From a virus (taxonomy: Duplodnaviria; Heunggongvirae; Uroviricota; Caudoviricetes), in IMG/VR virus record IMGVR_UViG_2861069343_000008: DNA of 23,210 nt; one strand, 5' to 3'. Made by a program: the position numbers and the translations under genes. Positions 6,135-7,094 of the stretch are shown piece after piece (the stretch's first letter is position 1; each line of letters starts with the position of its first letter). The notes beneath the pieces were generated by a model that was given only the letters and a program-made list of their open reading frames with translations, made no database searches and was not told the origin of the DNA.

Positions 6135-7094
6135 TTAATTTACCATCAGTCTTAGAGCCAGTTCGTCCGGATAGGGATCGAAGTAATTTTGTGTAAGCAA
6201 GTAATCATTAGGATACTCACCCAGATAATGCTTCAGCAGAGTCAACGGCGCAAGAAGAGGTAATGTGCCAGAACGATAGTTAAGTATAACCTCGCTCAAC
6301 TCTTTACGCTGGCGTGTACTTAAGTAGTTACTAAAATACCCCTGTATATGCATCAGCACATTCGTGTGATTTTTACGTGATGCAGGTTTTCTGAGAATCG
6401 CCATCAGCTTATCACGATACACCTCAAAGTATGATTCAAGGTCCGCCCACTCGTGTATTGCAGCCACAAATGGTCCCATATCTTTATAGCCTGCCTGACT
6501 ATGCGCCAACAACTGAAGCTTATAACGACTATGAAAAGCTAATAACTCTCTTCTTGATAATTTCTCCTTGTAAAGGTGATTGAGCTCATGCAAAGCAAAA
6601 ACTCTTTCAACAAAATTCTCACGAAGCACTGGATCATGTAATCGCCCATCCTCTTCAACCGGTAGCCAGGAAAACTTTTCCATCAAAGTGCTCGTAAATA
6701 GTCCCACTCCATCTTTACGACCTCGATTACCATTTTCATCATAGACACGCACGCGCTCCATGCCACAGCTGGGAGATTTAGCACAAACCACAAACCCCGA
6801 TACATCCTTTAATTTGTCCATATAAGAACGACTAAACTCTGTCATTCTCTCTGTCACATCCTCATTCTGGTCGTGGCTGAAACACATCCGTATATTTCCT
6901 TGCATCGAGCGCACAAGACGTAGAGCAGGACGCGGAACTGGCAGCCCTATAGCCATTTCCGGACATACTGGTCTGAATGTTACCCATTCCACTAATTTGT
7001 CCATTAAAAAGTCAGCTCTTTTGTGACCACCATCAAAACGAACAGCAGAACCGGCCAAACAACCGCTGATTCCAATCACAGGTTTTTTTATCAT
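6135..7094 (-). CDS. YbgA-family protein (DUF523 TudS-like N-domain plus DUF1722 C-domain)
   Basis: 319 aa. The N-terminus resembles E. coli YbgA, with conserved cysteines in GISGCLAG, PVCPEM and KSPSCG that fit the 4Fe-4S ligands of thiouracil-desulfurase-like DUF523 proteins. Confidence 0.7.
   Translation of the reverse strand: MIKKPVIGISGCLAGSAVRFDGGHKRADFLMDKLVEWVTFRPVCPEMAIGLPVPRPALRLVRSMQGNIRMCFSHDQNEDVTERMTEFSRSYMDKLKDVSGFVVCAKSPSCGMERVRVYDENGNRGRKDGVGLFTSTLMEKFSWLPVEEDGRLHDPVLRENFVERVFALHELNHLYKEKLSRRELLAFHSRYKLQLLAHSQAGYKDMGPFVAAIHEWADLESYFEVYRDKLMAILRKPASRKNHTNVLMHIQGYFSNYLSTRQRKELSEVILNYRSGTLPLLAPLTLLKHYLGEYPNDYLLTQNYFDPYPDELALRLMVN

What the first reader, a model, noticed from the sequence alone, without database searches (positions are those of the whole stretch)
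6135..7094. Prophage-borne YbgA-family (TudS-like DUF523 plus DUF1722) gene
The 319-aa product has the three-cysteine arrangement (GISGCLAG, PVCPEM, KSPSCG) that I associate with the 4Fe-4S site of DUF523 thiouracil-desulfurase-type enzymes, fused to a DUF1722 domain as in E. coli YbgA. A second copy of this fusion on a prophage, in the late operon, is unusual. If it acts on thiolated nucleobases or nucleosides it could affect tRNA modification or nucleotide-analogue metabolism during induction. That is speculation.
Basis: partly seen in the sequence, partly recalled or inferred. Interest (0 to 1): 0.45.

Follow-up and report, generated by a model that had tools for sequence, protein, structure and literature searches.

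The report
Prophage copy of tRNA desulfidase RudS
The gene is a prophage-borne RudS, an iron-sulfur enzyme that removes the sulfur from 4-thiouridine in tRNA; a 93%-identical copy from coliphage 1H12 has already been tested in the laboratory, so the gene is real but already known.

Summary
The ORF is real: window 6135..7094, minus strand, 319 aa. It has an N-terminal TudS/DUF523 domain and a C-terminal DUF1722 domain. Cys12, Cys44 and Cys110 are present, and so are the catalytic Glu46, Arg55, Ser107 and Ser109.

This architecture is the published RudS family (Jamontas et al., NAR 2024), tRNA 4-thiouridine desulfidases. The window protein is 93.4% identical to RudS_vir (Escherichia phage 1H12 gp66). 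That paper expressed RudS_vir in E. coli and found it lowered tRNA s4U.

The gene lies in a conserved cargo cassette: Q antiterminator, blc paralogue (opposite strand), rudS, AraC-like gene, then holin/endolysin/Rz. Here the cassette sits in a cryptic lambda-like prophage at att-lambda.

Two points were wrong:
- **E. coli YbgA is not a fusion.** It is a 169-aa stand-alone DUF1722 protein, 49% identical to the C-terminal domain only. The prophage gene is therefore the cell's only RudS, not a second copy.
- **The gene is not unusual.** It occurs in 1135 of 5426 complete E. coli genomes, in 12 deposited phage records with near-full-length matches, and in 154 IMG/VR contigs.

Alleles are under purifying selection (dN/dS 0.11). 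When the gene is expressed and what it does for the phage remain untested.

The parts
6135..7094 (-). rudS coding sequence (319 aa plus stop), annotated 'YbgA family protein' by RefSeq
   Evidence: ORF. Pfam domains. 93.4% identical to phage 1H12 gp66 (RudS_vir) and 99.4% to phage IdasGreatGrand. RefSeq protein WP_000592543.1.
6648..7076 (-). TudS/DUF523 catalytic domain (residues 7-149), carrying Cys12, Cys44, Glu46, Arg55, Ser107, Ser109 and Cys110
   Evidence: PF04463 E 4.5e-40. Residues listed. The solved TudS 6Z92 aligns over residues 6-67, including its Cys10 and the CPE motif with Cys43/Glu45. The SPSC motif equals TudS Ser101-Pro102-Ser103-Cys104. The equivalent RudS_KT residues were shown essential by mutagenesis.
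6168..6521 (-). DUF1722 domain (residues 192-309), the tRNA anticodon-arm binding domain in RudS
   Evidence: PF08349 E 5.8e-41. 49% identical to E. coli K-12 YbgA over 152 aa. The role in tRNA binding is taken from PMC11417400.
7098..7106 (-). Shine-Dalgarno sequence AAGGGGGAG, 3 nt upstream of the ATG
   Evidence: Read directly from the sequence. The AAGGGG core is invariant in four alleles.
7845..7868 (-). Hairpin followed by a T-run just downstream of Q, the likely tR' terminator of the late promoter region
   Evidence: It is the only terminator-like site on the minus strand between Q and the lysis genes. The identification as tR' is an inference from lambdoid phage organisation.
7967..8344 (-). 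Q antiterminator gene
   Evidence: PF06530 E 2.5e-51. RefSeq annotation. Upstream of rudS on the same strand in 78 of 79 IMG/VR loci.
7287..7811 (+). blc paralogue (outer-membrane lipocalin), divergent from rudS
   Evidence: PF08212 E 7.2e-44 and NCBIfam Blc subfamily at 316 bits, above the cut-off of 267. 60% identical to chromosomal Blc b4149. Adjacent and divergent in 79 of 79 IMG/VR loci.
5053..5792 (-). AraC-family regulator gene, frameshifted in this window
   Evidence: HTH_18/HTH_AraC on the 195-aa ORF. One-base deletion and stop relative to the intact 243-aa 1H12 gp67. RefSeq flags it 'frameshifted'. GC 31.6%.
3689..4865 (-). Lysis cassette: holin essD (4650..4865), endolysin rrrD (4153..4650) and Rz (3689..4156)
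   Evidence: Pfam Phage_lysozyme and Phage_lysis. RefSeq annotation.

Best explanation
The gene encodes a RudS-family tRNA 4-thiouridine desulfidase carried as cargo by lambdoid coliphages.

Mechanism, taken from the characterised family. Cys12, Cys44 and Cys110 hold a [4Fe-4S] cluster whose fourth iron is free. The DUF1722 domain docks on the anticodon arm of a tRNA, and the TudS domain takes up the flipped-out s4U at position 8 (or 9). The thiocarbonyl sulfur binds the free iron. Glu46, positioned by Arg55, Ser107 and Ser109, activates water to attack C4. The result is uridine in the tRNA, with sulfide leaving through a [4Fe-5S] intermediate. No redox step is involved.

What is shown here: the domain architecture, every catalytic residue, 93.4% identity to an orthologue that lowers tRNA s4U when expressed in E. 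coli, purifying selection, and the conserved cassette position.

What is inferred: the gene lies between Q and the lysis genes on the late strand, with only the tR'-like terminator in between. It would therefore be transcribed by Q-modified RNA polymerase after induction, and possibly also from a weak promoter of its own. Erasing s4U, the near-UV sensor of tRNA, would keep translation going and blunt the UVA growth delay and stringent response. For a UV/SOS-induced prophage, that is the condition under which it must make late proteins.
For: - Pfam PF04463 plus PF08349.
- Catalytic set C12, C44, E46, R55, S107, S109, C110. It matches RudS_KT C17, C49, E51, R60, S111, S113, C114, whose mutation abolishes activity, and TudS C10, C43, E45, S101, S103, C104.
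- 93.4% identity over all 319 residues to Escherichia phage 1H12 gp66, which is RudS_vir with Cys12/44/110 in Table 1 of PMC11417400. None of the 21 differences is at a catalytic residue.
- All six RudS proteins, RudS_vir included, reduced tRNA s4U in E. coli. Stand-alone TudS and YbgA did not.
- dN/dS is 0.108 against the 1H12 allele and 0.19 against the Qin-type allele.
- The ORF is full length in each of the four phage or prophage alleles translated here (window, 1H12, Qin-type, 2013C-4282), and 1063 genomes hold a match covering at least 80% of the gene.
- The same Q-blc-rudS-araC-holin cassette occurs in phage 1H12, phage IdasGreatGrand, a Qin-like prophage, an intact-looking prophage and 76-79 of 77-79 IMG/VR loci.
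- Only one terminator-like hairpin lies between Q and the lysis genes on that strand.
- RudS overexpression diminishes the UVA growth delay in E. coli (abstract).
Against: - Activity of this exact allele was not measured.
- RudS_vir was the less active orthologue on tRNA despite good expression. It also gave the shortest lag on 4-thiouracil, so its substrate preference may be shifted.
- The phage clade carries about 16 substitutions at positions that are at least 90% conserved in chromosomal enterobacterial RudS, including R71C, R175Y and R267S.
- No expression data exist for the prophage gene, so timing (late versus lysogenic) is inference only.
- This prophage is cryptic: it has no head or tail genes and carries a deletion in O/P. 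A role in virion production cannot be what maintains the gene here.
- My structure model was too poor to test the cluster geometry (mean pLDDT 56).
Confidence: 0.85

Rival explanations
1. Lysogenic-conversion gene. rudS, together with the divergent blc, is expressed from its own promoter in the uninduced lysogen. It benefits the host by lowering s4U and so reducing UVA growth delay and UVA/UVB synergy. It is not a late phage function. The molecular activity is the same as in the best explanation; only the timing and the beneficiary differ.
For: The cassette is retained with an intact rudS in cryptic prophages that can no longer make virions, namely this att-lambda element and Qin-like elements. 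It is under purifying selection and is present in about 20% of complete E. coli genomes. The neighbouring blc is on the opposite strand, so it must have its own promoter in the shared 192-bp intergenic region. Cargo genes at the Q-S position of lambdoid phages often have their own promoters (general knowledge of Stx phages).
Against: Only weak promoter-like sites (9 of 12) lie upstream of rudS, no more than shuffled sequence gives. The intergenic region is no better conserved than the coding sequence. No LexA box is present, and there is only a poor MlrA-box-like dyad. There are no expression data.
Confidence: 0.35
2. TudS-like salvage enzyme. The phage protein mainly desulfurates free 4-thiouracil, 4-thio-UMP or 4-thiouridine released by RNA turnover, rather than intact tRNA.
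For: RudS_vir gave the shortest lag of all RudS proteins on 4-thiouracil in a pyrF auxotroph, and lower tRNA desulfidation than RudS_ST at a similar protein level. Stand-alone TudS prefers 4-thio-UMP.
Against: RudS_vir still lowered tRNA s4U significantly, whereas stand-alone TudS did not. None of the RudS proteins rescued growth the way TudS does, and the paper concludes that thiouracils are not the primary substrates. The DUF1722 domain is fully retained and under purifying selection.
Confidence: 0.1
3. Decaying passenger. The gene is a non-functional leftover in a degraded prophage.
For: The prophage is cryptic. The adjacent AraC-like gene is frameshifted, O/P are deleted, and some strains such as BL21 keep only a rudS fragment.
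Against: The ORF is full length with all catalytic residues. dN/dS is 0.11-0.19. An allele with a 100%-identical protein is present in many IMG/VR contigs and a 99.4%-identical one in an isolated phage.
Confidence: 0.04

Closest known systems
RudS_vir, Escherichia phage 1H12 gp66 (H3V29_gp66; Jamontas et al., NAR 2024, PMC11417400)
   Same: 319 aa, 93.4% identical, with the same Cys12/44/110. It sits in the same cassette: Q, blc on the opposite strand, rudS, AraC-like gene, holin. It was shown to lower tRNA s4U when expressed in E. coli.
   Different: There are 21 substitutions, none catalytic. In 1H12 the phage is complete and the AraC-like gene is intact. Here the prophage is cryptic and that gene is frameshifted.
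RudS_ST / ORF319 (STM1389) of Salmonella Typhimurium and chromosomal enterobacterial RudS (for example Citrobacter braakii)
   Same: The length is the same (319 aa), with the same domains and catalytic residues. Identity to chromosomal enterobacterial RudS is 70-76%.
   Different: The chromosomal genes lie under MerR/MlrA-type regulators. Salmonella orf319 is repressed by MlrA/MlrB. In Citrobacter, rudS is the last gene of a cluster: MerR, SnoaL, SDR, amine oxidase, DUF1365, CFA synthase, DUF2878, DUF3833. The phage copy has no MerR neighbour, has 43% GC against 54.5% in Citrobacter, and carries about 16 clade-specific substitutions.
RudS_KT (PP_0741) of Pseudomonas putida KT2440, the biochemically characterised reference enzyme
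   Same: TudS-DUF1722 architecture. C17, C49, E51, R60, S111, S113 and C114 correspond to C12, C44, E46, R55, S107, S109 and C110 here.
   Different: Its gene lies in a light-regulated phrB-litR-rudS operon. I did not obtain the sequence, so the identity and the DUF1722 tRNA-contact residues (N202, N203, S243, R244, T246) were not aligned.
TudS (stand-alone DUF523; PDB 6Z92/6Z96)
   Same: It has the same catalytic domain family (PF04463), and the CxxG...CPE...PRP...SPSC motifs are shared.
   Different: TudS is 166 aa with no DUF1722 domain. It acts on 4-thio-UMP and thiouracil, not on tRNA. Pairwise sequence similarity is detectable only over residues 6-67 (E 2e-4).
E. coli YbgA (b0707), the host 'YbgA family protein'
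   Same: It shares the DUF1722 domain, at 49% identity over 152 aa. RefSeq gives both proteins the same product name.
   Different: YbgA is 169 aa with no TudS domain and no cysteine ligands. It lies upstream of the photolyase gene phr and has no effect on tRNA s4U. The window protein scores 190.8 bits against the YbgA equivalog model, below the cut-off of 237.

Membership tests
RudS (TudS-DUF1722 tRNA s4U desulfidase) | N-terminal TudS/DUF523 catalytic domain | tested here: met
   PF04463 at residues 7-149, E 4.5e-40, full profile coverage. PDB TudS hit over residues 6-67.
RudS (TudS-DUF1722 tRNA s4U desulfidase) | [quoted passage not shown] | tested here: met
   Cys12, Cys44 and Cys110 are present and invariant in 23 homologues. 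These are the positions listed for RudS_vir and RudS_ST in Table 1 of PMC11417400. Actual cluster binding was not testable.
RudS (TudS-DUF1722 tRNA s4U desulfidase) | Catalytic Glu, two Ser and the Glu-orienting Arg | tested here: met
   Glu46, Ser107, Ser109 and Arg55 are invariant in the alignment. The equivalents E51, S111, S113 and R60 are essential in RudS_KT.
RudS (TudS-DUF1722 tRNA s4U desulfidase) | C-terminal DUF1722 domain fused in the same polypeptide | tested here: met
   PF08349 at residues 192-309, E 5.8e-41.
RudS (TudS-DUF1722 tRNA s4U desulfidase) | Converts s4U to U in tRNA | not testable with these tools
   Inferred from 93.4% identity to RudS_vir, which lowered tRNA s4U in vivo.
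RudS (TudS-DUF1722 tRNA s4U desulfidase) | Typical (not defining) context: a light-responsive operon with a MerR/LitR regulator and/or photolyase | tested here: not met
   The neighbours are Q, blc, an AraC-like gene and lysis genes. No MerR-family or photolyase gene is annotated anywhere in the prophage, which covers the whole window. This concerns regulation, not family membership.
RudS (TudS-DUF1722 tRNA s4U desulfidase) | TudS-like fold with the three Cys converging on one site | tested here: inconclusive
   The AlphaFold2 model from a shallow 23-sequence alignment had mean pLDDT 56 and pTM 0.46. It was too poor for a fold search.
E. coli YbgA equivalog (NCBIfam NF007549) | Whole-protein score above the curated cut-off; 169-aa DUF1722-only protein | tested here: not met
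   190.8 bits against a cut-off of 237. The match covers only residues 160-315, at 49% identity.
Stand-alone TudS | Single-domain protein of about 150-170 aa | tested here: not met
   319 aa with a fused DUF1722 domain.

The most novel reading that the evidence does not exclude
The prophage RudS is a phage-timed or host-domesticated 'tRNA sunscreen remover'. It lies in the same Q-to-lysis cargo slot that carries stx in Stx phages. It erases the near-UV sensor s4U from host tRNA, either when a UV/SOS signal induces the prophage or constitutively in the lysogen. This prevents UVA-triggered tRNA crosslinking, growth delay and the stringent response. It would explain why about one in five E. coli strains keep it even in cryptic prophages. 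It would also mean that s4U levels and UVA physiology differ between E. coli strains according to prophage content, which contradicts the current statement that E. coli lacks RudS.
Probability: 0.3. Interest if true: 0.45.

Novelty: already known. Interest (0 to 1): 0.2.

Why it matters
The molecular function adds nothing new. The family was named and characterised in 2024, and a 93%-identical coliphage orthologue was among the enzymes tested.

The residual value is contextual. The literature treats E. coli as lacking RudS, yet about 20% of complete E. coli genomes carry this prophage copy. It sits in a fixed cassette with a blc paralogue at the Q-lysis junction. RefSeq gives it the same name ('YbgA family protein') as the unrelated-in-function 169-aa host YbgA. 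This matters for anyone who measures s4U or UVA responses in non-K-12 strains. It also sets up a simple, untested question about why a UV-inducible phage carries an eraser of the cell's near-UV sensor.

Tried and rejected
1. **Structure check.** AlphaFold2 on a 23-sequence alignment gave mean pLDDT 56. All available homologues were at least 70% identical. The model was unusable, so no fold search was run.
2. **Third cysteine against solved TudS.** phmmer with residues 97-166 found only noise hits to ribosomal proteins. The assignment rests on the full-length Pfam match and the shared SPSC motif.
3. **Origin of blc-rudS.** I tested whether the pair came together from a chromosomal light-stress cluster. 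The unannotated 175-aa protein in the Citrobacter cluster is not a lipocalin, so this was rejected.
4. **Host ybgA as a truncated RudS.** No TudS-domain remnant lies upstream of ybgA in K-12 or YD786. An extended HSP seen at word size 2 vanished under default settings.
5. **SOS control.** There is no LexA box near rudS.
6. **MlrA/MerR control.** A dyad AAATTG-N21-CAATTT lies at 7147..7179. It matches the MlrA box poorly (8/11 and 6/11, with spacing off by one). Its right arm is mutated in the 1H12 allele, and it is absent from Citrobacter and Salmonella loci. It is not supported.
7. **A perfect 10-nt inverted repeat at 7205-7254** is not conserved and shows no compensatory changes in other alleles.
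8. **Other scans.** No tRNA genes and no Rfam families were found in the window. RudS and Blc gave no PADLOC defence-system hit.
9. **Literature.** No paper links RudS or DUF1722 to prophage biology beyond the NAR 2024 study.

Full report
**1. What is in the sequence**

The window holds an ATG-started ORF from 7094 down to 6135 on the minus strand, encoding 319 aa. A strong Shine-Dalgarno sequence (AAGGGGGAG, 7098..7106) lies 3 nt upstream of the ATG. Pfam places a complete '2-thiouracil desulfurase' (DUF523/TudS, PF04463) domain at residues 7-149 (E 4.5e-40). It places a complete DUF1722 domain (PF08349) at residues 192-309 (E 5.8e-41).

**2. What family it belongs to**

A TudS domain fused to DUF1722 is the defining architecture of RudS. 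This family was named and characterised by Jamontas et al. (Nucleic Acids Res. 2024, PMC11417400).
- RudS enzymes remove the sulfur of 4-thiouridine (s4U8/9) in intact tRNA, leaving uridine.
- The TudS domain is the catalytic core, with a [4Fe-4S] cluster on three cysteines.
- DUF1722 binds the anticodon region of the tRNA.
- Overexpression in E. coli lowers tRNA s4U 4.7- to 26-fold and diminishes the UVA growth delay.

One of the six enzymes tested was RudS_vir, gp66 of Escherichia phage 1H12 (NC_049947), listed with conserved Cys12, Cys44 and Cys110. The window protein is 93.4% identical to that protein over all 319 residues. It is 99.4% identical to a protein of the isolated phage IdasGreatGrand.

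**3. Catalytic residues**

The mutationally defined catalytic set of RudS_KT is C17, C49, C114, E51, S111, S113 and R60. It corresponds to C12, C44, C110, E46, S107, S109 and R55 here. All of these are invariant in an alignment of 23 enterobacterial homologues. The solved TudS (PDB 6Z92) aligns over residues 6-67, which includes its Cys10 and the CPE motif. TudS's Ser101-Pro102-Ser103-Cys104 is the SPSC motif at residues 107-110. None of the 21 differences from RudS_vir touches these residues. A structural check failed: the AlphaFold2 model from the shallow alignment available had mean pLDDT 56 and was not used.

**4. Relation to host ybgA**

It is not.
- K-12 b0707 is 169 aa, DUF1722 only, and lies upstream of the photolyase gene phr.
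- Strain YD786 matches the window at 100% identity over its whole length, apart from 1,097 bp that the window lacks (section 8). It carries the same 169-aa ybgA-phrB pair about 85 kb from the prophage rudS.
- The window protein matches host YbgA only over residues 163-314, at 49% identity.
- It scores below the curated cut-off of the YbgA equivalog model, 190.8 bits against 237.
- No remnant of a TudS domain lies upstream of host ybgA.
- In the RudS paper, YbgA had no effect on s4U.

The prophage gene is therefore not a duplicate. It is the only RudS in such a cell. RefSeq's shared product name 'YbgA family protein' hides this.

**5. Where the phage gene came from**

The nearest non-phage relatives are chromosomal enterobacterial RudS proteins, all 319 aa and 70-76% identical. 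They include Citrobacter, Serratia, Enterobacter, Klebsiella, Pectobacterium and Salmonella. Synonymous sites between these and the phage gene are saturated, and the GC content differs: 43% in the phage gene against 54.5% in Citrobacter.

In Citrobacter braakii, rudS is the last gene of a stress cluster headed by an MlrA-like MerR regulator. Salmonella orf319 (RudS_ST) is repressed by MlrA and MlrB. The phage clade is therefore an old offshoot of the enterobacterial lineage, with about 16 clade-specific substitutions at otherwise conserved positions. Between phage alleles, dN/dS is 0.11-0.19, which shows purifying selection.

**6. Genomic setting**

The window is a lambda-like prophage at att-lambda, between ybhC and ybhB/bioA. 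It carries int, xis, exo, bet, gam, kil, cI, cro, O, P, ren, the nin genes, Q and the lysis genes. It has no head or tail genes. In this window it also has a 1,097-bp deletion across P and O. It is cryptic.

On the minus strand the order is as follows:

| Feature | Coordinates |
|---|---|
| Q antiterminator | 7967..8344 |
| Hairpin plus T-run, likely tR' | 7868..7845 |
| blc paralogue, opposite strand | 7287..7811 |
| rudS | 6135..7094 |
| AraC-like gene, frameshifted here | 5053..5792 |
| Holin, endolysin, Rz | 3689..4865 |

No other terminator-like site lies between Q and the lysis genes on that strand. By position and orientation, rudS is thus inside the Q-dependent late transcription unit, in the slot where Stx phages carry stx. 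Its transcription has not been measured.

The same cassette is found in several other places:
- phage 1H12 and phage IdasGreatGrand;
- a Qin-like prophage;
- an intact-looking prophage with a terminase gene;
- nearly all of the 80 best IMG/VR loci. blc is adjacent and divergent in 79 of 79, Q is upstream in 78 of 79, and the holin region is downstream in 76 of 77.

**7. How common it is**

- rudS matches occur in 1135 of 5426 complete E. coli genomes. In 1063 the match covers at least 80% of the gene.
- They fall into three allele classes: at least 99% identity, about 98% (Qin-type) and about 92% (1H12-type).
- There are 12 near-full-length matches among deposited phage genomes.
- 154 IMG/VR contigs carry a relative.
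- The protein belongs to PHROG 3275.

The gene is not unusual. The statement in the RudS paper that E. coli lacks RudS holds for K-12-type laboratory strains but not for the species. BL21 retains a 49-codon remnant next to an IS3 element.

**8. Most likely mode of action, and its rivals**

The molecular function (s4U-to-U desulfidation of tRNA at a three-cysteine [4Fe-4S] cluster) is well supported by homology to assayed enzymes (confidence 0.85). The physiological role is inference. s4U is the near-UV sensor that crosslinks to C13 and triggers growth delay and ppGpp accumulation. A UV/SOS-inducible phage could gain by erasing it. Alternatively, the lysogen could gain UVA tolerance, which would explain retention in cryptic prophages.

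I found no convincing dedicated promoter, LexA box or MerR/MlrA operator upstream. A weaker rival is a TudS-like salvage role: RudS_vir was the best RudS on 4-thiouracil and weaker on tRNA. Against this, stand-alone TudS does not affect tRNA s4U, while RudS_vir does. Gene decay is contradicted by the intact ORF and the low dN/dS.

**9. Verdict**

The feature is real and was read correctly at the level of enzyme type. It is already known: it is a close orthologue of an experimentally tested phage RudS. Interest is low. What remains is the untested biological role of RudS in lambdoid prophages, and its unrecognised prevalence in E. coli.

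Noticed in passing
window 11889/11890: Relative to E. coli YD786 the window lacks 1,097 bp (L009 17891-18987), covering most of replication gene P and the 3' part of O. The rest of the window is 100% identical to YD786. The prophage also has no head or tail genes, so it is cryptic.
   Followed up: yes
window 5053..5792 (-): The AraC-family regulator gene downstream of rudS is frameshifted here by a one-base deletion near 5650, followed by a stop. It is an intact 243-aa gene in phage 1H12 (gp67) and in a Qin-like prophage. It has very low GC (31.6%). 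The best promoter-like site of the region (6088..6061, 10 of 12) lies just upstream of it. In the IMG/VR loci, 61 of the 75 copies found downstream of rudS align as a single full-length match. Its target genes are unknown.
   Followed up: partly
window 14177..15753 (+): A HipA-family kinase gene and a DUF3037 gene lie immediately downstream of the cI repressor gene. They match the PADLOC candidate defence pair PDC-M66A and PDC-M66B (E 5.8e-15 and 4e-16).
   Followed up: no
window 7287..7811 (+): A lipocalin gene is 60% identical to chromosomal Blc (b4149) and scores above the NCBIfam Blc cut-off. It is divergent from rudS and adjacent to it in 79 of 79 IMG/VR loci. Both cargo genes are thus diverged paralogues of host genes. 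Why they travel together is unexplained.
   Followed up: partly
L012 (E. coli BL21, NZ_CP053601.1 1558651-1558797): BL21 keeps only the first 49 codons of rudS beside an IS3 element, with Q and blc intact. BL21(DE3) was the expression host in the published RudS assays.
   Followed up: partly
window 7147..7179: A dyad AAATTG-N21-CAATTT lies 52-85 nt upstream of the rudS start and is the only such site in the window. It loosely resembles the E. coli MlrA box AAAATTGTACA(12N)TGTACAATTTT. Salmonella RudS (orf319) is repressed by MlrA/MlrB. The match is poor, the right arm is mutated in the 1H12 allele, and chromosomal loci lack it.
   Followed up: yes
L007 8001-8960 (Salmonella enterica serovar Derby, JAEKZB010000008.1): A 74%-identical RudS lies between ttcA (tRNA 2-thiocytidine synthetase) and a DUF1367 phage-type gene followed by a Usp-family (universal stress protein) gene. 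In E. coli K-12, Rac integrates at this position (from my own knowledge). This suggests another phage-delivered copy, distinct from the SPI-2 orf319.
   Followed up: no
L004/L006 1175-8960 (Citrobacter braakii): Chromosomal rudS is the last gene of an 11-gene cluster: MlrA-like MerR, SnoaL, SDR, amine oxidase, DUF1365, CFA synthase, DUF2878, an unannotated 175-aa protein, DUF3833, then rudS. This is the light- and oxidative-stress type of context described for other RudS genes.
   Followed up: partly
window 6135..7094 and L095 6367-6876: RefSeq gives the same product name, 'YbgA family protein', to the 319-aa prophage RudS and to the 169-aa host YbgA in the same genome. This invites the confusion seen in the first-stage reading.
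   Followed up: yes
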